A DNA stretch of 64,000 bases from Bacteroidota bacterium (GTDB lineage Bacteria; Bacteroidota; Bacteroidia; Chitinophagales; Chitinophagaceae). The notes beneath the pieces are model-generated. The model was not told where the DNA came from. It worked only from the letters and a program-made list of their open reading frames with translations, and searched no databases. The position numbers were made by a program, and so were the translations under genes. The stretch spans positions 53,553-117,552 of the forward strand of contig CANGDH010000004.1 in NCBI GenBank assembly GCA_947452555.1, given 5' to 3'. Below are positions 3,977 to 17,773 of this stretch, one piece after another (within the stretch, counting starts at the first letter, position 1; each line of letters begins with the position of its first letter).

Positions 3977-4702
3977 TTAGTTAATTCCTAATAATTCTAC
4001 TTCAAATATCAAAGTAGATCCAGGCCCAATTAAGGCACCAGCAGAACGTTCACCGTATGCTAACTCTGAAGGTATAAACAATTTCCATTTGCTCCCTACT
4101 GTCATTAACTGCAAAGCTTCTTGCCATCCCTTAATAACTCCATTTAATGGGAAACTAATAGGCTCACCTCTTTGAACTGAACTGTCAAAAACAGTTCCGT
4201 TAATTAAAGTGCCATGGTAATGACATCTTACTGTATTTTTTAAAGTAGGTTTTGTGGTATCTGTACCAGCAACTATTACTTCATATTGTAAGCCATTCGT
4301 TAAACGAACAACTCCTGGTCTTTTAGCATTCGCAGCTAAAAATTCAGCGCCTGCTGCACGGTTTGCAGCGATTTTTTCTGTACTCATTTTATCTTGGTAT
4401 GTTTTAATGCAAATATCTAATAAGCTATCTGGAATTACTGACTTGGACTGAACTCCTGCAGTAAAACCTTTTTCAAATAATGACATGCTTATGTCTTGTA
4501 ATCCTTGTCCTTTCATGCTTTGTGCAATTCTATACCCTAAAGCATAAGAAGCACTGTCTTTAGTTGTCTTCAAAGACTGGGCTGCTGTAAAAGTTAACGC
4601 CAGTTTAGGCTTAGAAGTTGGTTTGCCTGCTACCGTTTTTGTTTGCGCCTGCAACGTAACCAATAATCCCAAAAATGTAAAAATTAAAATCCCTTTTTTC
4701 AT
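3977..4702 (-). CDS. FKBP-type peptidyl-prolyl cis-trans isomerase (FkpA/FklB-like, exported)
   Basis: Signal peptide, SYALG dimerisation motif, GLQYEV, HYHGTLINGTVFDSS, VIKGWQEAL, LAYG, TLIFEVEL. Confidence 0.95.
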   Translation of the reverse strand: MKKGILIFTFLGLLVTLQAQTKTVAGKPTSKPKLALTFTAAQSLKTTKDSASYALGYRIAQSMKGQGLQDISMSLFEKGFTAGVQSKSVIPDSLLDICIKTYQDKMSTEKIAANRAAGAEFLAANAKRPGVVRLTNGLQYEVIVAGTDTTKPTLKNTVRCHYHGTLINGTVFDSSVQRGEPISFPLNGVIKGWQEALQLMTVGSKWKLFIPSELAYGERSAGALIGPGSTLIFEVELLGIN

Positions 4703-12455: not shown

Positions 12456-13103
12456 TTATTTTTTTCTAAACCAGTTCAATAATTTACTTTGTTTTATTTT
12501 CATAAAACGCTCGTATAGTTTAGACTTATTTTTAAATGCTGCTTCTACTTGATCCGGAGTATGTAAACTCTTTGGCTCATACAACATAGCAGTACACATA
12601 CAATTTTTACGATCCTTGCTCATTAATATTTCATAATTCACACAGTTCTTACAGCCTGCCCAAAATTCTTCGTCGTCAGTTAATTCACTGTAAGTAACAG
12701 GCTCGTAGCCCAATTCGCTATTGATTTTCATAACCGCTAATCCTGTTGTCAATCCAAAAATTTTAGCAGTTGGATATTTCTCTCTTGACAATTGGAAAAT
12801 AGTTTGCTTGATTTTTTTTGCAATTCCTGTTTTTCTAAATGCAGGCGCAACGATTAATCCACTATTCGCTACAAACTGACCATGTTGCCAAGCTTCTATA
12901 TAACAAAAGCCAACCCATGCTCCGTCCTCGGTATGTGCAATTACTGCTTTACCTTCTTCTATTTTTTGTGCAACATATGCTGGACTTCTTTTAGCAATTC
13001 CGGTTCCTCGTGCCTTTGCTGAAGATTCCATCTCGTCTGTGATGGCTTTAGCATATGAAATATCACCACTATGGGCTACACGTACTATGATTTTCTGTTC
13101 CAA
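12456..13103 (-). CDS. GNAT acyltransferase, Bacteroidota-type N-acylglutamate synthase (ArgA'-like), first gene of arg operon
   Basis: SAKARGTGIAKRS, GFCYIE, NSGLIV..FRKTGIA, FWAGCKNC..CMCTAM; the family is found at the head of Bacteroidota arg operons. TTG start. Confidence 0.8.
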   Translation of the reverse strand: MEQKIIVRVAHSGDISYAKAITDEMESSAKARGTGIAKRSPAYVAQKIEEGKAVIAHTEDGAWVGFCYIEAWQHGQFVANSGLIVAPAFRKTGIAKKIKQTIFQLSREKYPTAKIFGLTTGLAVMKINSELGYEPVTYSELTDDEEFWAGCKNCVNYEILMSKDRKNCMCTAMLYEPKSLHTPDQVEAAFKNKSKLYERFMKIKQSKLLNWFRKK

Positions 13104-13118
13104 TGATAGATAAAATTT

Positions 13119-13335
13119 AAAAAAATGACACTTCTGGCTTCAAAAGACAATTTCGGGGCTTTTTCCACTGATAGGGGCAAGTGCCAATTGCTCGTCCTAT
13201 CAGAATCCACGTCGGTAGAAAGATCTACCCAACTGGGGCAACCTGATAGGGCTGTTCAAAACAGGAACAGATGCAGCAATTGCATGTGTAGATAAGATAT
13301 GTAATGTTTCCTGTTTCATTTATAATTTCCTGTTT
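13119..13335 (-). promoter_or_regulatory. Structured 5' leader of arg operon, candidate attenuator
   Basis: 58/120 G+C in 13141-13260 versus 32/120 in 13381-13500; several complementary 8-10-mers; U7 tract at 13125-13119. Confidence 0.65.
13200..13319 (-). CDS. Putative arg operon leader peptide, 39 aa: MKQETLHILSTHAIAASVPVLNSPIRLPQLGRSFYRRGF
   Basis: ATG at 13319 to TGA at 13200 in an A/T-rich start context; all four Arg codons lie in the last 14 codons; ends 96 nt before argA'. Below the ORF track size cutoff. Confidence 0.65.
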   Translation of the reverse strand: MKQETLHILSTHAIAASVPVLNSPIRLPQLGRSFYRRGF

Positions 13336-13511
13336 AGGAATGAGATAGTAAAAATAGGCAATTAAATAGACAATTTAGGCCTATTTAGGCTTATAATTTG
13401 AGCTCAAGGAGAAATGAAAGCGACAAAATGAATAAAAATAATAAATGTTAGTTTTTATATGATGCTAAGGAATCGTAATTTTAATGCAAACTCAACCATA
13501 ACAATAGCCTT

Positions 13512-13960: not shown

Positions 13961-16900
13961 TTAGCTAAATAAATAATTAATATCTTCTTTAGTCAATGAT
14001 TTTACAAATCCATCCTCGTCTGAAATAAGGTCTTTGGCCAAAGATCTTTTACGATCTTGTAGTTTTAAGATTTTATCTTCAACGGTATCATTACATATCA
14101 TTCGATATGCAAAAATGTTTTTAGTTTGACCAATGCGGTGTGTTCTGTCAATTGCTTGTTGTTCTACAGCTGGGTTCCACCAAGGATCAACAATGTATAC
14201 ATAGTCTGCAGCTGTCAAGTTTAATCCAACTCCTCCTGCTTTTAATGAGATTAAAAACACGCGACAACTTGATTCATTCTGGAATCGTTCAATAGCACGC
14301 TCTCTTTCTTGAATGGTACTACCTCCATCAAAATATTCATATTCAATTCCTAAACGAGTAAGCTCTGCTCTAATCAATCCCAGCATCCCTAAAAATTGGG
14401 AAAATACTAAAGCTTTATGATCTCCAATGTTTTCAGTGATCTCTCTAATTAATTCAGTCAACTTAACTGACTCATTTGGATATGCTTCGTCTTTTAAAAT
14501 TGCAGGGCTATCGCATATTTGACGAAGCTTCATTAAACCTTGTAAAATAGATAACTGAGATTTTTGAATTCCTTTTTCTTCCACCATTCCAATTAACTTA
14601 TCACGATAATCGTTTCTATAAGCTTCGTAAATTTTTCTTTGTGCGTCTCCCATTTCACAATACAACACCATTTCTTGCTTCTCTGGTAAGTCTTTTGCCA
14701 CCTGCTCTTTGGTTCTTCTTAAAATGAAAGGGAATACAAATTTTCGTAAATGTTCTTTTTGTTCTTTCTCGTCAAACTTATCAATAGGCATGGAGAAATT
14801 ATGTTTAAAGAATTCTACAGAACCAAGCATACCTGGATTCAAAAAGTTCATTTGCGCATAAATATCAAATGTATTATTCTGAAGCGGAGTTCCACTCAAG
14901 CATAATCTGTTAGTTGCCTTTAATAAACCAGCTGCTTTGGTAACTTTACTTGCTGGGTTTTTAATTGCTTGGCTTTCATCCAGAATTACATAATCAAAAT
15001 TGATTTCTGAGAACATTTTGATATCACTTCTTAAAGTACCATATGTAGTTATAATAACTTCTACCTGTCCGTCGCCTAAATTCTTTTTGATTCTTGAACC
15101 ACCATGATGTATTTGGAAAGTCAATGTTGGTGTGAATTTCTTCAATTCATTTTGCCAGTTAAACAACAAAGTAGTAGGACAAACAACCAATGCTAATAAT
15201 TTGCCGTTCTTCTCTCTTAAGTGCTGCAGGAATGACAATGTTTGAATTGTTTTACCCAACCCCATATCATCTGCTAATATGCCACCCCATTGAACTTCAT
15301 TCAAATAGTTCAACCACTGAAAACCGCTTATTTGATAAGGTCTTAAAATAGGTGACAAGTGCTCAGGAGGGTCAATATTTGAAATGGTATATTTTTCTCT
15401 AATATTTTCATACTTGCCTTCCAATTGGAATATTAATTCTTCTTCATCTCTTTGTTGATACAATTCATCTAAAACAGAAAAATGATACTTGCTTAATTTC
15501 AAAGTGTCAGTTTGACCATCTCCCACTTTAAACAATAAAGAATACTTATTCAACCAAGCTTCTGGCAATACGCCTAAGCTTCCATCTTTTAATGGAATAA
15601 ACTGTTGCTTATTATTCAACATGTTCTTGATGTCCTGAATACTTACTTTTTGATCTCCAAATGAAATATCAACTTTAGCATCAAACCAATCCGTGTTGCT
15701 ACTGATATATAATCTTGTAGCAGGCTTAGCGGTATTGAATTTAAACTGCTTTAAATATTCTGTACCGAATAATGGTATTTGACGCTCCTTTAATGTATCA
15801 ATGAATAAGAAAAACCAATTATTCTTTAAAACTTCTGCCCCCTTTAATGCCAAAACATTTCCTTCATTAGGTCTTACAAAGCCAGAGTGTAATTGTTCAA
15901 TTACATTCATCAATTGTCTTTCGGAAGCCAAGTCTCTTTCTAACACAATTATCTTATCTCCTACTTGTTGAATCACATAAGGCTTATCGTCTTTGTTTAC
16001 AATAATATCATTGTAAACAAATAATGGTTCAAAAAATAAATAATCATTATTCTCTTTCAGGAAAATTTGCAAAGTAGGTGTTACTCCTTTTATTTTCTCT
16101 TGTAAAATCTGATCGAACTCTACTGCATATTTTTTAGCAATAGGCAACATTGTAGTTTGTAAATAGGTAGGCCAATCAGAAAATGATACTTCATGATAAC
16201 CTTGTGGCATAAATTTCTCCACCCAATTCAAGTCTTCCGCATTTTTCCATGCAAAAAACTGATGTTGATGCTGGAAAAGGAAATGTGACTTAGCATGATT
16301 GTCCTCGATAGCAACTTGTCCATTCGGCAAAATAACCTGAGCGTAAACAATGTACTTACCGTCTGCCTTTTCTACTTTAAAGCTAGGCTGTATAGTAGTA
16401 TACACTAAGTCAGCCTTTTGAATATTTGCAGTAGTGAAAGGTTTGTTATGCGGGATAAAGAAATTGAAAGGATGTTCAGAAAGATCTTTCCAAACCTTGT
16501 CAATTTTAGGATGTAAATATTCTTGAATTAATTCTTTTGTTTCTTCTGGCAGACTTGCCTCGTCAGTATGTACAATAGTATCCCAAATTCCCTGAAAAGG
16601 AGAGTTCTTATTCAAGAACTTAGTCATTTCAGCTGGTTGTAACTTTCTAATTAATTGTAATAAAATTTTATCCTCTTCATTTATTAAATTAGGAATCACA
16701 AATTTCATAATATCCACTTTCTCCACTTTGCTAATAAATGCAGTGCCTTCGTCATTTACTTCTCCCTTAATTACATTAAAACTAATATAAGGATACGCTG
16801 TAGGATGATGTTGCATAACCAACCCAAATCGCTCTGTAATTTTAGTTACTTCTTCCTCTTCGTCATCATCCATAACATCAGGTAATGGCAATGGACGCAT

Positions 16901-17773
16901 TGGCATTTTCCTTTTTACTAGCTCTGCTGCAGGTTGATCATATTTGTCAGAATACTTACTAGTATTGGATCCTGAGCCATCTACCTTTTGAATAGAAGCA
17001 TCTAAGACCTTTAAATACGGCTTTCCTTCGTGATAGGTAAATTCAAATTTATCCTTAAGATTATCTTGAAGTGAATAACCATACAAAGACAATAACTTAT
17101 TCTTTTCTCTATCCCAATTACGAATAGTTTCAAAGTAGTCCGAACCTTTAAGTTGGAATAATTGTAGTAATAAAACTGTTTTATGTAGACAGAGAGGATA
17201 TTCTGTTTCTGTCAAACAATCACATGAAGTATCAAAAAATCGTTCTTCATTTTTTTGAATTATGATATGATGTGTTTTGCCATTTTCATCCATTTCGGCA
17301 ACCACTTTTTCATTCTCACTAAAAGTGATATGAGGACGAATAGTTTTTAAAGTTTCTTCTGCTTTTTCAAAAATGAATTTTGAACAAAGCATACGAATGG
17401 TCTTTAGGTCTAATATTTTTGCTCTTAATAAAGTATGGGTAGTTTTATAAGAAGCTGCTTGATAGTCTAATAAATTTTTGTCCAACAAGTCTTGAATGAA
17501 AAATAAAGCAGCGGCTTTATGTCTACATACTTCTGACAAATTATAAGGACAACCACATCTTAAAGACAAGGTGGCTGCGTTCGTAAAGTTGTCAATAGTT
17601 ACTTTATAATAGGTACTATAACCGTCGTCTTTTACACGACAATGAATGCTACCAATTAATGGATCAAATTTTACTAACTCAATATTTTTAAGCGCGAAAA
17701 TACGTTTACCCCTGCGGATAACCTCTTCGGTGCCATAACTGTAGATGTGTTTAACTAAATAGGGTAATGCCAT
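13961..17773 (-). CDS. SWI2/SNF2-family ATPase with N-terminal SWIM zinc fingers
   Basis: CGC..CRH and CDC..CLH SWIM motifs; LRPYQ, LADDMGLGKT, DESQ, LSGTP, SLKAGGVGLNL, DPWWNP, QAIDRTHRIGQ. Confidence 0.93.
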   Translation of the reverse strand: MALPYLVKHIYSYGTEEVIRRGKRIFALKNIELVKFDPLIGSIHCRVKDDGYSTYYKVTIDNFTNAATLSLRCGCPYNLSEVCRHKAAALFFIQDLLDKNLLDYQAASYKTTHTLLRAKILDLKTIRMLCSKFIFEKAEETLKTIRPHITFSENEKVVAEMDENGKTHHIIIQKNEERFFDTSCDCLTETEYPLCLHKTVLLLQLFQLKGSDYFETIRNWDREKNKLLSLYGYSLQDNLKDKFEFTYHEGKPYLKVLDASIQKVDGSGSNTSKYSDKYDQPAAELVKRKMPMRPLPLPDVMDDDEEEEVTKITERFGLVMQHHPTAYPYISFNVIKGEVNDEGTAFISKVEKVDIMKFVIPNLINEEDKILLQLIRKLQPAEMTKFLNKNSPFQGIWDTIVHTDEASLPEETKELIQEYLHPKIDKVWKDLSEHPFNFFIPHNKPFTTANIQKADLVYTTIQPSFKVEKADGKYIVYAQVILPNGQVAIEDNHAKSHFLFQHQHQFFAWKNAEDLNWVEKFMPQGYHEVSFSDWPTYLQTTMLPIAKKYAVEFDQILQEKIKGVTPTLQIFLKENNDYLFFEPLFVYNDIIVNKDDKPYVIQQVGDKIIVLERDLASERQLMNVIEQLHSGFVRPNEGNVLALKGAEVLKNNWFFLFIDTLKERQIPLFGTEYLKQFKFNTAKPATRLYISSNTDWFDAKVDISFGDQKVSIQDIKNMLNNKQQFIPLKDGSLGVLPEAWLNKYSLLFKVGDGQTDTLKLSKYHFSVLDELYQQRDEEELIFQLEGKYENIREKYTISNIDPPEHLSPILRPYQISGFQWLNYLNEVQWGGILADDMGLGKTIQTLSFLQHLREKNGKLLALVVCPTTLLFNWQNELKKFTPTLTFQIHHGGSRIKKNLGDGQVEVIITTYGTLRSDIKMFSEINFDYVILDESQAIKNPASKVTKAAGLLKATNRLCLSGTPLQNNTFDIYAQMNFLNPGMLGSVEFFKHNFSMPIDKFDEKEQKEHLRKFVFPFILRRTKEQVAKDLPEKQEMVLYCEMGDAQRKIYEAYRNDYRDKLIGMVEEKGIQKSQLSILQGLMKLRQICDSPAILKDEAYPNESVKLTELIREITENIGDHKALVFSQFLGMLGLIRAELTRLGIEYEYFDGGSTIQERERAIERFQNESSCRVFLISLKAGGVGLNLTAADYVYIVDPWWNPAVEQQAIDRTHRIGQTKNIFAYRMICNDTVEDKILKLQDRKRSLAKDLISDEDGFVKSLTKEDINYLFS

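What the first reader, a model, noticed from the sequence alone, without database searches (positions are those of the whole stretch)
13200..13319. Unannotated Arg-codon leader peptide ahead of the arginine biosynthesis operon (candidate arginine attenuator)
Seen: a minus-strand uORF ATG(13319)-TGA(13200) encodes MKQETLHILSTHAIAASVPVLNSPIRLPQLGRSFYRRGF. There is no Arg in the first 25 codons, then four Arg using four different codons: AGG (26), AGA (32) and tandem CGA-CGT (36-37), two codons before the stop. It ends 96 nt upstream of the first arg gene, on the same strand. Established: amino-acid operons (trp, his, leu, thr) use leader peptides with cognate codons, whereas bacterial arg operons are classically ArgR-repressed; Arg-related uORF control is known from the fungal AAP and from SpeFL. 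Inference: ribosome stalling on low Arg-tRNA, or a nascent-chain arginine sensor (the uORF is long enough to fill the exit tunnel), controls the operon. I do not know of such a system described for Bacteroidota.
Basis: partly seen in the sequence, partly recalled or inferred. Interest (0 to 1): 0.88.

Follow-up and report, generated by a model that had tools for sequence, protein, structure and literature searches.

The report
Arginine-codon leader peptide before arg operon
A small translated reading frame ending in two rare arginine codons, with its stop codon inside a strongly conserved RNA hairpin, precedes the arginine-synthesis operon in about 30% of sampled genera of a bacterial family that lacks the usual arginine repressor; it most likely lets the ribosome report arginine supply, a control I did not find described for bacterial arginine synthesis.

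Summary
The 39-codon frame 13319-13200 (-) ends in CGA-CGT-GGA-TTC-TGA, 96 nt before an acetyltransferase gene followed by argG, argC, argD, argF', argB, argE and argH.

It is not a chance ORF. 159 distinct leaders have an in-frame ORF ending 2-4 codons after an Arg run. An RNA model hits exactly one site per genome in 43 of 150 Chitinophagaceae genera, always before this operon. Indels keep the frame.

The Arg codons are 49% CGA, against 5% in the adjacent arg genes. The stop lies in the 5' arm of a 36-nt hairpin supported by compensatory changes. In at least 13 sister genera the whole ~38-residue peptide is under purifying selection (dN/dS about 0.08). ArgR was not found in this genome, nor, bar one marginal hit, in 151 family genomes.

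No conserved terminator/antiterminator pairing exists, so this is not a classical trp-type attenuator.

Best reading: ribosome progress through CGA-CGY reports charged tRNA-Arg, with output through the stop-codon hairpin, probably pause- and Rho-dependent as in SpeFL and TnaC, or translational. A nascent-peptide arginine sensor or an RNA aptamer is not excluded.

This scan found the same element earlier in two other genomes. I found no published description.

The parts
13349..13356 (-). Bacteroidota-type -7 promoter box TATTTTTA (TAnnTTT[G/A]), 29 nt before the uORF ATG
   Evidence: such a box lies 120-180 nt upstream of the leader stop in 158 of 159 distinct leaders, against 16 of 179 control windows inside the acetyltransferase gene. 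The sequence is read. The transcription start itself is inferred, not mapped.
13200..13319 (-). Leader ORF (39 codons plus TGA), ending ...YRRGF
   Evidence: conserved in-frame ORF, frame-preserving indels, C-terminal Arg run.
13261..13314 (-). Nested hairpin inside the 5' half of the uORF: ACAGGA (13314-13309) pairs with TCCTGT (13266-13261), and ATGC (13285-13282) pairs with GCAT (13274-13271)
   Evidence: in 40 distinct leaders of the window's clade, pair types are GC 30 / AU 6 / GU 3, then AU 14 / GC 7 / UA 5, then GC 26 / CG 9 / AU 3 at three positions. This feature is specific to the clade.
13209..13214 (-). Regulatory Arg codons CGA-CGT (codons 36-37)
   Evidence: CGA in 124 of 127 and CGT/CGC in 126 of 127. 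CGA is 7.4% of Arg codons in this genome, where AGA is 54%; both leader codons are read by tRNA-Arg(ACG). CGA makes up 49% of leader Arg codons and 5% of Arg codons in the adjacent genes, across 34 genera.
13168..13203 (-). Hairpin H1. The 5' arm CTGATAGG (13203-13196) contains the stop TGA and a following TAG. Then come an ACGA internal loop, an inner helix GCAA/TTGC, the apical loop TTGGCAC (13187-13181) and the 3' arm CCTATCAG (13175-13168).
   Evidence: one outer-stem pair is C-G in 18 and U-A in 17 sequences and is never broken. Inner-helix pairs are GC 26 / AU 7 and CG 19 / AU 11 / UA 1. 94.9% of cells are paired, against 27-46% when the partner is slid. There is one copy per genome.
13154..13167 (-). 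Conserved tail TGGAAAAAG plus C-tract CCCCG, at a fixed distance after H1
   Evidence: GTGRAA is invariant or nearly so, and YCCCC(G) aligns without gaps 9-13 nt after H1 across genera. Its role as an RNA polymerase pause site or Rho-binding site is inferred only.
13134..13138 (-). GCCAG, complementary to the H1 apical loop TTGGC (candidate loop-to-spacer contact)
   Evidence: GCCA(G/A) recurs in the window's group. In other genera the polarity is swapped (loop NACCA, downstream hairpin loop TGGT). Covariation at the flanking position is not significant (p = 0.11), so this is a lead, not a finding.
13119..13125 (-). U7 tract 16 nt upstream of the start codon, with no convincing preceding GC hairpin
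   Evidence: the best hairpin plus U-tract in the window scores -4.1 kcal/mol and is composite. Most close relatives have none.
12456..13103 (-). First operon gene, a GNAT-type acetyltransferase (acetylglutamate-synthase-like), with a TTG start
   Evidence: weak match to an N-acetyltransferase model; the start is TTG in 119 and GTG in 4 of 123 leaders; the gene lies directly downstream of the motif in 32 of 34 genus-level loci; the other two are cut by contig ends.
4749..12450 (-). argG, argC, argD, argF' (acyl-ornithine carbamoyltransferase type), argB, argE-like deacylase, argH
   Evidence: NCBIfam matches for each ORF.

Best explanation
The arg operon mRNA starts about 20-25 nt before a translated 39-codon leader ORF. 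Its last codons are CGA-CGT-GGA-TTC, followed by UGA. CGA is a rare codon, and both Arg codons are read by the single tRNA-Arg(ACG, inosine-modified). The UGA is the second to fourth base of the 5' arm of a conserved hairpin (H1). When charged tRNA-Arg is scarce, the ribosome waits with CGA or CGU in its A site. In 92% of leaders only 5 nt separate that codon from the base of H1, so H1 stays folded at the mRNA entrance and a ribosome stays parked at the end of the leader. When arginine is plentiful, the ribosome runs to UGA, melts H1, terminates and leaves. The difference in ribosome residence and H1 state sets expression of the downstream operon, which is on in starvation. Because I found no conserved competing helix and no conserved intrinsic terminator, the output is most likely of the tnaC/speFL kind. 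In that scheme H1 acts as an RNA polymerase pause hairpin with a conserved C-tract 9-13 nt downstream, and the parked ribosome denies Rho access to the C-rich, G-poor spacer. Alternatively, the output is control of initiation at the weak UUG start. Shown here: translation-type conservation, the Arg-codon bias, the H1 structure, linkage to the operon, and that ArgR was not found. Inferred: the direction of regulation, the roles of pausing and Rho, and any contribution of the nascent peptide.
For: The ORF is conserved and indels keep its frame. Arg is invariant at codons -4 and -3, while Gly at -2 varies freely in its third base (GGT 66, GGA 56). Pro at -5 uses all four codons almost equally. 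Arg at -6 switches between the CGA, AGA and AGG codon families. In other genera the Arg run shifts register relative to H1 (RRGF, RRRPVF, RRVF, RRF), but the run and its CGN codons persist. This argues for a constraint at the codon level rather than at fixed RNA positions. Leader Arg codons are CGA 49%, CGT 30%, CGC 13% and AGR 3%; the adjacent arg genes have CGA 5% and AGR 34%. In this genome CGA is 7.4% of Arg codons. H1 shows compensatory changes. There is one copy per genome, always before the acetyltransferase-argG operon. ArgR domains were not found in this genome, and only one marginal hit appeared in 151 family genomes, although the same search finds ArgR in Bacteroides thetaiotaomicron and other control genomes. 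A promoter box lies upstream of the uORF. Rho is present. The spacer has C 0.22 and G 0.14, with C above G in 28 of 29 genera. [quoted passage not shown]
Against: The near-invariance of H1, including its ACGA internal loop and the tail GUGRAA, across genera whose acetyltransferase proteins are only about 70% identical, is more than a hairpin merely melted by ribosomes should need. In at least 13 genera the whole peptide is under strong purifying selection, which classical hungry-codon leaders do not show. A ribosome at the Arg codons and one at the stop differ by only 9-12 nt, so discrimination must be kinetic. Two leaders have only one Arg in the terminal run (IRPGF, RPRPGF). The Rho or pause output rests on composition and analogy only.
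Confidence: 0.58

Rival explanations
1. Nascent-peptide metabolite sensor, a bacterial counterpart of the fungal arginine attenuator peptide or of TnaC and SpeFL. Inside the exit tunnel, the leader peptide and free arginine (or a pathway intermediate) together block termination or elongation at the end of the ORF. The arrested ribosome holds H1 open and so switches the operon.
For: In at least 13 genera a ~38-residue peptide containing NILTHTKQFAFHAPxTSGVYxVGFDVFTF followed by RPRRR is conserved with many synonymous changes (dN/dS about 0.08, dS about 1.6). Its length matches the exit tunnel. Its C-terminal half is rich in aromatic residues, as in the SpeFL effector domain. The last residue is nearly always F, C or Y. 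The stop is always UGA in the leaders found. The hairpin includes the ORF's 3' end, as in speFL.
Against: In the window's own genus the peptide is diverged and varies in length and sequence. Part of it is shaped by a covarying RNA hairpin. The residues between the Arg run and the stop vary (GF, GC, GV, VF, PVF, PAC, PEF, SIF, IS, F). The strong CGA/CGN codon bias is not predicted by a purely peptide-level sensor. The UGA and the final C of the last codon are also constrained by the H1 stem.
Confidence: 0.2
2. H1, with the downstream hairpin H2 in other genera, is a ligand-binding or protein-binding RNA: a riboswitch-like aptamer or the target of an unknown RNA-binding regulator. The uORF only assists, for example by timing or by resetting the fold.
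For: H1 is almost invariant in sequence as well as structure. It has a conserved asymmetric internal loop (ACGA opposite C) and a conserved tail. In 20 of 34 genera there is a second conserved hairpin, GGAYUGGUNAUCC, whose loop complements the H1 apical loop. In the window's group this polarity is swapped.
Against: No Rfam family matches. The covariation test for the loop-loop pairing is not significant. The Arg-codon run, its codon bias and the frame conservation need translation to be explained. The stop codon is always inside the 5' arm, which ties H1 to the ribosome.
Confidence: 0.12
3. Classical trp/his-type transcription attenuator. A ribosome stalled at the Arg codons selects an antiterminator over an intrinsic terminator placed before the first gene.
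For: About half of the representative leaders have a small hairpin followed by a U-rich tract 15-35 nt before the start. The window has an upstream copy, CCTATCAGG (13250-13242), that could compete for the 5' arm of H1.
Against: These hairpins are weak (-2 to -7 kcal/mol) and essentially absent in the window's clade. No segment of the core is more complementary to the spacer than to shuffled spacers (z about 0). Masking the 5' arm does not change predicted start-site accessibility. The upstream competing copy reaches 6 nt or more in only 21 of 159 leaders.
Confidence: 0.05
4. The conserved block is a DNA operator for an unknown transcription factor, and the ORF is incidental.
For: H1 is a nested inverted repeat at the DNA level.
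Against: Frame-preserving indels, codon-type variation at positions -2, -5 and -6, dN/dS of 0.08 in sister genera, and compensatory changes that include a G-U pair in the inner helix point to RNA and translation. No antisense ORF is conserved.
Confidence: 0.03

Closest known systems
Classical leader-peptide transcription attenuators of amino-acid operons (trpL, hisL, pheL, leuL, thrL, ilvL in Proteobacteria)
   Same: A short translated ORF in the leader of a biosynthetic operon carries codons for the pathway's own amino acid, so ribosome speed reports charged tRNA.
   Different: Here the amino acid is arginine, which I did not find described for an arg biosynthetic operon. Only 2-3 regulatory codons are present, placed 2-4 codons before the stop. 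I detected no conserved terminator/antiterminator alternatives. The stop codon lies inside a sequence-invariant hairpin. In sister genera the whole peptide is conserved.
SpeFL/speF and TnaC/tnaCAB (arrest peptides coupled to Rho-dependent termination)
   Same: The leader ORF is about 24-40 codons long. A hairpin includes the 3' end of the leader ORF (speFL). Rare consecutive Arg codons occur (speFL R12, R13). The decisive event is ribosome residence at the end of the ORF. No intrinsic terminator is needed (doi 10.1101/604074).
   Different: Those systems induce catabolic or polyamine genes when a free ligand (ornithine or tryptophan) arrests termination. Here a biosynthetic operon must be switched on by shortage, and the conserved feature is a codon-biased Arg run. 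Ligand dependence and Rho involvement are untested. I could show no sequence homology.
Fungal arginine attenuator peptide (uORF of CPA1/arg-2)
   Same: A uORF before an arginine-pathway gene, with the ribosome as the arginine sensor.
   Different: The fungal peptide senses free arginine and blocks scanning ribosomes in eukaryotes. Its sequence is unrelated, it has no Arg-codon run, and no RNA hairpin is involved.
rbfL of Staphylococcus aureus (PMC13009471)
   Same: A leader peptide whose rare Arg codons make ribosome pausing report arginine limitation.
   Different: rbfL has 8 codons, overlaps the ribosome-binding site of a biofilm regulator and represses it under limitation by occlusion. It is not linked to arginine biosynthesis and has no conserved hairpin.
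Arg-codon leaders noted earlier in this scan before arg operons of Flavobacteriaceae and other lineages (AI notes, unchecked)
   Same: uORFs end in Arg codons before arg operons in lineages said to lack ArgR.
   Different: The RNA elements differ. Model R1 found no match outside this family in 140 genomes of the same order.

Membership tests
Classical leader-peptide transcription attenuator (trp/his type) | Short translated ORF in the leader of an amino-acid biosynthetic operon | tested here: met
Classical leader-peptide transcription attenuator (trp/his type) | Enrichment of codons for the cognate amino acid in the leader ORF | tested here: met
   The terminal run is 2 Arg in 148 of 159 leaders and 3 in 9. 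The codon bias is CGA 49% in leaders against 5% in adjacent genes.
Classical leader-peptide transcription attenuator (trp/his type) | Mutually exclusive antiterminator and terminator helices selected by ribosome position | tested here: not met
   Duplex energies between core segments and the spacer do not differ from shuffles. The consensus fold yields only H1. The upstream competing copy is rare.
Classical leader-peptide transcription attenuator (trp/his type) | Intrinsic terminator (stable hairpin plus U-tract) before the first structural gene | tested here: not met
   weak hairpins appear in about half of the representatives and almost none in the window's clade. The window's best is -4.1 kcal/mol.
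Ligand-dependent arrest peptides with Rho-dependent output (TnaC, SpeFL) | Peptide sequence conserved under purifying selection | tested here: inconclusive
   Met in at least 13 sister genera (dN/dS 0.08). In the window's genus only the C-terminal (P)RRG(F/C) and short N-terminal motifs persist.
Ligand-dependent arrest peptides with Rho-dependent output (TnaC, SpeFL) | [quoted passage not shown] | tested here: met
   The stop codon lies in the 5' arm of H1, which is supported by covariation.
Ligand-dependent arrest peptides with Rho-dependent output (TnaC, SpeFL) | Ligand-dependent ribosome arrest at or near the stop codon | not testable with these tools
   Needs toeprinting or ribosome profiling.
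Ligand-dependent arrest peptides with Rho-dependent output (TnaC, SpeFL) | Rho-dependent termination downstream, with a Rho-binding site next to the stop | tested here: inconclusive
   The Rho gene is present. The spacer has C above G in 28 of 29 genera. There is no functional test.
ArgR/ARG-box repression | ArgR protein encoded in the genome | tested here: not met
   PF01316 was not found in this genome, which is 89.65% complete. PF02863 gave 1 marginal hit in 151 family genomes, while control genomes gave hits.
Any Rfam family (riboswitch or leader) | Match to a curated covariance model | tested here: not met
   nothing better than E = 1.7, and all such matches are implausible snoRNA-type hits.

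The most novel reading that the evidence does not exclude
The leader is a two-part arginine sensor of a kind not known in bacteria. In one form, the conserved ~38-residue nascent peptide and the ribosome bind free arginine, as the fungal attenuator peptide does. In the other, the near-invariant H1 (with H2) RNA is a natural arginine-binding aptamer that works together with a uORF whose stop codon lies inside it. Either would explain the sequence invariance that the hungry-codon model leaves unexplained.
Probability: 0.25. Interest if true: 0.93.

Novelty: new variant of a known kind. Interest (0 to 1): 0.78.

Why it matters
Arginine biosynthesis is the textbook case of repressor control by ArgR, in contrast to attenuation. 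I found no paper describing a leader-peptide control of a bacterial arg biosynthetic operon. This element would show how a large family of environmental Bacteroidota, in which ArgR was not found, regulates arginine synthesis. The family uses no Shine-Dalgarno sequences.

The architecture departs from classical attenuators. It combines rare CGA codons read through inosine wobble, a stop codon buried in an invariant hairpin, a conserved peptide, no terminator and a UUG start. It therefore offers a compact system for asking how ribosome position near a stop codon is converted into gene control. The element is about 220 nt long and is directly testable with reporters and toeprinting.

Tried and rejected
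1. Frameshift coupling. I tested whether ribosomes shift frame at hungry Arg codons and translate into the first gene. The +1 and +2 frames are not consistently open up to the start, so I rejected this.

2. Antisense coding as the cause of core conservation. No conserved antisense ORF exists beyond the core.

3. Antiterminator search. RNAduplex scores of the Arg-Arg-Gly codons, the 5' arm, the loop and the 3' arm plus tail against the spacer gave z between -0.4 and +0.5 relative to shuffles.

4. Start-site accessibility with and without masking of the 5' arm. Mean accessibility was 0.544 against 0.546, so there is no effect.

5. Intrinsic-terminator scan. Terminator-like hairpins are weak and inconsistent.

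6. The competing upstream helix in the window, also noted by another first-stage finding on this window. It is not conserved.

7. Covariation at the flanking position of the loop-loop pairing. It is paired in 5 of 14 cases, permutation p = 0.11.

8. Rfam, Pfam and NCBIfam searches for the RNA and the peptide found nothing. A protein-database search with a sister-genus peptide found six unnamed or 'hypothetical' small proteins.

9. Public RNA-seq look-up.

10. A resemblance of the sister-genus peptide to SpeFL (THxxKFAH and FDFHFF against THTKQFAFH and FDVFTF). This is from my memory of the SpeFL sequence, is not statistically testable here, and is treated only as a lead.

Full report
**Observation**

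Arg occurs only at codons 26 (AGG), 32 (AGA), 36 (CGA) and 37 (CGT). The stop lies 96 nt before the TTG start (13103) of a GNAT-type acetyltransferase gene. That gene is followed on the same strand by argG, argC, argD, an acyl-ornithine-type carbamoyltransferase gene, argB, an ArgE/DapE-family deacylase gene and argH.

**Is it real?**

In 40 relatives, the stretch upstream of the orthologous acetyltransferase carries a uORF ending ...(P/S)RRG(F/C)-TGA, about 90-107 nt before the gene. In 20 of 20 untruncated same-genus leaders, the frame that ends at this stop is open for 30-41 codons from an ATG or GTG, while the other two frames are mostly much shorter. Length differences between aligned starts and ends are multiples of three.

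A pattern scan of public genomes recovered over 120 records, mostly Sediminibacterium, Parasediminibacterium, Flavihumibacter and Chitinophagaceae assemblies from metagenomes. In 127 distinct leaders the codon pattern before the stop was as follows:

| Codon position | Residue | Codons used |
|---|---|---|
| -4 | Arg 127/127 | CGA 124, AGA 2, CGT 1 |
| -3 | Arg 126/127 | CGT 100, CGC 26 |
| -2 | Gly 124/127 | GGT 66, GGA 56, GGG 2 |
| -1 | Phe, Cys or Tyr | TTC 75, TGC 51, TAC 1 |
| -5 | Pro in 82 | all four codons in near-equal numbers |
| -6 | Arg in 67 | CGA 44, AGA 12, AGG 10 |

This is the pattern expected of a translated sequence.

A Bacteroidota -7 promoter box (TAnnTTT[G/A]; 13356-13349 in the window) precedes the uORF in 158 of 159 distinct leaders. 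Only 16 of 179 control windows have one. The uORF is therefore very probably inside the operon transcript.

**The RNA element**

Conservation at the nucleotide level begins sharply at the CGA codon and runs for about 55 nt: CGA CGY GGW TKC TGA TAG GACGAGCARYTGGCMMTTGCCCCTATCAGTGRA. It folds as a hairpin, H1 (13203-13168). The 5' arm starts with the last base of the final sense codon and contains the UGA.

Within the exact-match set nothing varies in the outer stem. I therefore built a covariance model and searched further. It hits exactly one site per genome in 43 of 150 genera of the family, sampled as one genome per genus. It found no match in 140 genomes from the other families of the order.

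In these divergent members one outer-stem pair is C-G in 18 and U-A in 17 sequences and is never broken. Two inner-helix pairs also covary (GC 26 / AU 7; CG 19 / AU 11 / UA 1). Overall, 94.9% of cells pair, against 27-46% when the partner is slid by one to three columns. H1 is thus a real RNA structure, but most of its sequence is invariant, including the ACGA internal loop and the tail GUGRAA.

A C-tract (YCCCCG) follows at a conserved distance of 9-13 nt. In 32 of 34 genus-level loci the acetyltransferase gene and argG lie directly downstream. The other two loci end at contig borders.

**Codon bias**

Across 34 genera, the Arg codons among the last eight leader codons compare with those of the adjacent arg genes as follows:

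| Codon | Leader | Adjacent arg genes |
|---|---|---|
| CGA | 49% | 5% |
| CGT | 30% | 26% |
| CGC | 13% | 21% |
| CGG | 4% | 14% |
| AGA | 3% | 19% |
| AGG | 0% | 15% |

In the window's genome, AGA is 54% and CGA 7.4% of Arg codons, and a tRNA-Arg(ACG) gene is present.

The Arg run also keeps its CGN codons when its register relative to H1 changes (RRGF, RRRPVF, RRRPAC, RRVF, RRF). A fixed RNA-position constraint is therefore unlikely. The last Arg codon is at codon -3 in 146 of 159 leaders. From established knowledge, CGU, CGC and CGA are read by the inosine-modified tRNA-Arg(ACG), and CGA is the least efficiently read of the three.

**No classical attenuator**

- The consensus fold of 67 representative leaders, from the Arg codons to the start codon, contains only H1.
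- No core segment is more complementary to its spacer than to shuffled spacers.
- Masking the 5' arm, as a ribosome would, does not change the predicted accessibility of the start.
- Terminator-like hairpins are weak, occur in about half of the representatives and are essentially absent in the window's clade.
- The upstream copy in the window that could compete for the 5' arm (13250-13242) is conserved at 6 nt or more in only 21 of 159 leaders.

**The peptide**

In at least 13 other genera the whole leader peptide is conserved: (M/V)xNILTHTKQFAFHAPxTSGVYxVGFDVFTFxRPRRR..., about 38 residues. Many of the differences between genera are synonymous. By the Nei-Gojobori method the median dN is 0.16, dS 1.6 and dN/dS 0.08.

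In the window's genus the peptide has diverged. Only short N-terminal motifs (KQ...H-I-L) and the C-terminal motif remain. In the window's own clade the 5' half of the uORF is instead constrained by a covarying nested hairpin (13314-13261).

This peptide-level selection is not a feature of classical hungry-codon leaders. It keeps a nascent-chain mechanism in play.

**Context**

ArgR domains were not found in the window's genome, which is 89.65% complete. Only one marginal hit, with an internal stop, appeared in 151 family genomes, although the same search detects ArgR in Bacteroides thetaiotaomicron and seven other control genomes. Rho is encoded. The spacer has C above G in 28 of 29 genera. 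The first gene starts with TTG or GTG in all 123 leaders where a start could be assigned and in 28 of 29 genus-level loci.

**Mechanism**

The best-supported reading is that ribosome progress through CGA-CGY reports charged tRNA-Arg. The geometry fits this. With the last Arg codon in the A site, only 5 nt separate it from the base of H1, so H1 should stay folded at the mRNA entrance. A ribosome that reaches UGA must melt it.

With no competing helices and no conserved terminator, I infer an output like that of tnaC or speFL. In speFL a hairpin includes the 3' end of the leader ORF and pauses RNA polymerase, rare Arg codons tune ribosome traffic, and a ribosome held at the end of the ORF blocks Rho (doi 10.1101/604074). 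Here the hold would come from tRNA-Arg shortage, which gives induction on starvation. Translational control of the weak UUG start is an alternative output.

These steps are inferred. What is shown is the anatomy and its conservation.

**Unexplained**

The sequence invariance of H1 and the selection on the peptide exceed what this model needs. In 20 of 34 genera a second hairpin (GGAYUGGUNAUCC) follows, and its loop complements the H1 apical loop (NACCA). In the window's group the polarity appears swapped: the loop is UUGGC and the spacer carries GCCAG at 13138-13134. The flanking-position covariation is not significant. A ligand-binding or protein-binding RNA, or a nascent-peptide arginine sensor, therefore remains possible. 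I give these together about 0.3.

**Comparison and novelty**

No Rfam, Pfam or NCBIfam family matches. The few database copies of the peptide are unnamed or 'hypothetical'. Literature searches found several related systems but no leader peptide for a bacterial arg biosynthetic operon. What they found:
- Arg-codon sensing in rbfL of S. aureus (PMC13009471);
- SpeFL;
- a general remark on leader-peptide attenuation before amino-acid biosynthesis operons in Flavobacterium psychrophilum (PMC9723704);
- uORF motifs for other amino acids (PMC8632094).

This scan reported the same element earlier in two other genomes, and analogous Arg-codon leaders in other lineages. Those notes agree with my tests but are not independent evidence.

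I class the element as a new variant of a known kind: leader-peptide control with an unusual architecture and an unresolved output.

Noticed in passing
L165-L197 (other Chitinophagaceae genera), about 22-48 nt after H1: A second conserved small hairpin, GGAYUGGUNAUCC, is present in 20 of 34 genera. Its loop UGGU complements the H1 apical loop NACCA. It is absent from the window, whose H1 loop is UUGGC with GCCAG in the spacer. This may be a kissing-loop or pseudoknot contact with swapped polarity.
   Followed up: partly
L017 (genome G008, same genus): This is a natural variant in which the whole H1 core and the Arg-Arg-Gly-Phe end are deleted. The uORF instead runs on to 9 nt before the acetyltransferase start. 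It could serve as a natural 'constitutive' control.
   Followed up: no
window 13101-13103 and orthologues: The first operon gene starts with TTG in 119 and GTG in 4 of 123 leaders, and with ATG in only 1 of 29 genus-level loci. A weak start codon conserved this strictly suggests that initiation itself is part of the control.
   Followed up: partly
L024 (another family of the same order), upstream of its acetyltransferase gene: A different leader, with a uORF ending ...SYRRRR-TAG. It is followed by two overlapping 7-bp hairpins, the second followed by GUUUUU. This looks like an antiterminator/terminator pair, that is, a classical-looking Arg attenuator with no sequence similarity to H1.
   Followed up: no
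window 13250-13242: CCTATCAGG inside the uORF, covering Arg codon 26, is an exact copy of the H1 3' arm and could compete for the 5' arm. It is present only in a subclade: an exact 8-nt copy occurs in 5 of 159 leaders.
   Followed up: yes
whole genome G000: ARAGORN finds only 26 tRNA genes in the 2.28-Mb, 13-contig assembly (89.65% complete), so the tRNA set is incomplete. Four tRNA-Arg genes (tct, acg, cct, ccg) are present.
   Followed up: no
window 13961-17773 (-) and 3977-4702 (-): The operon is flanked upstream by a 1270-residue ORF that I did not examine, and downstream by an FKBP-type peptidyl-prolyl isomerase gene.
   Followed up: no
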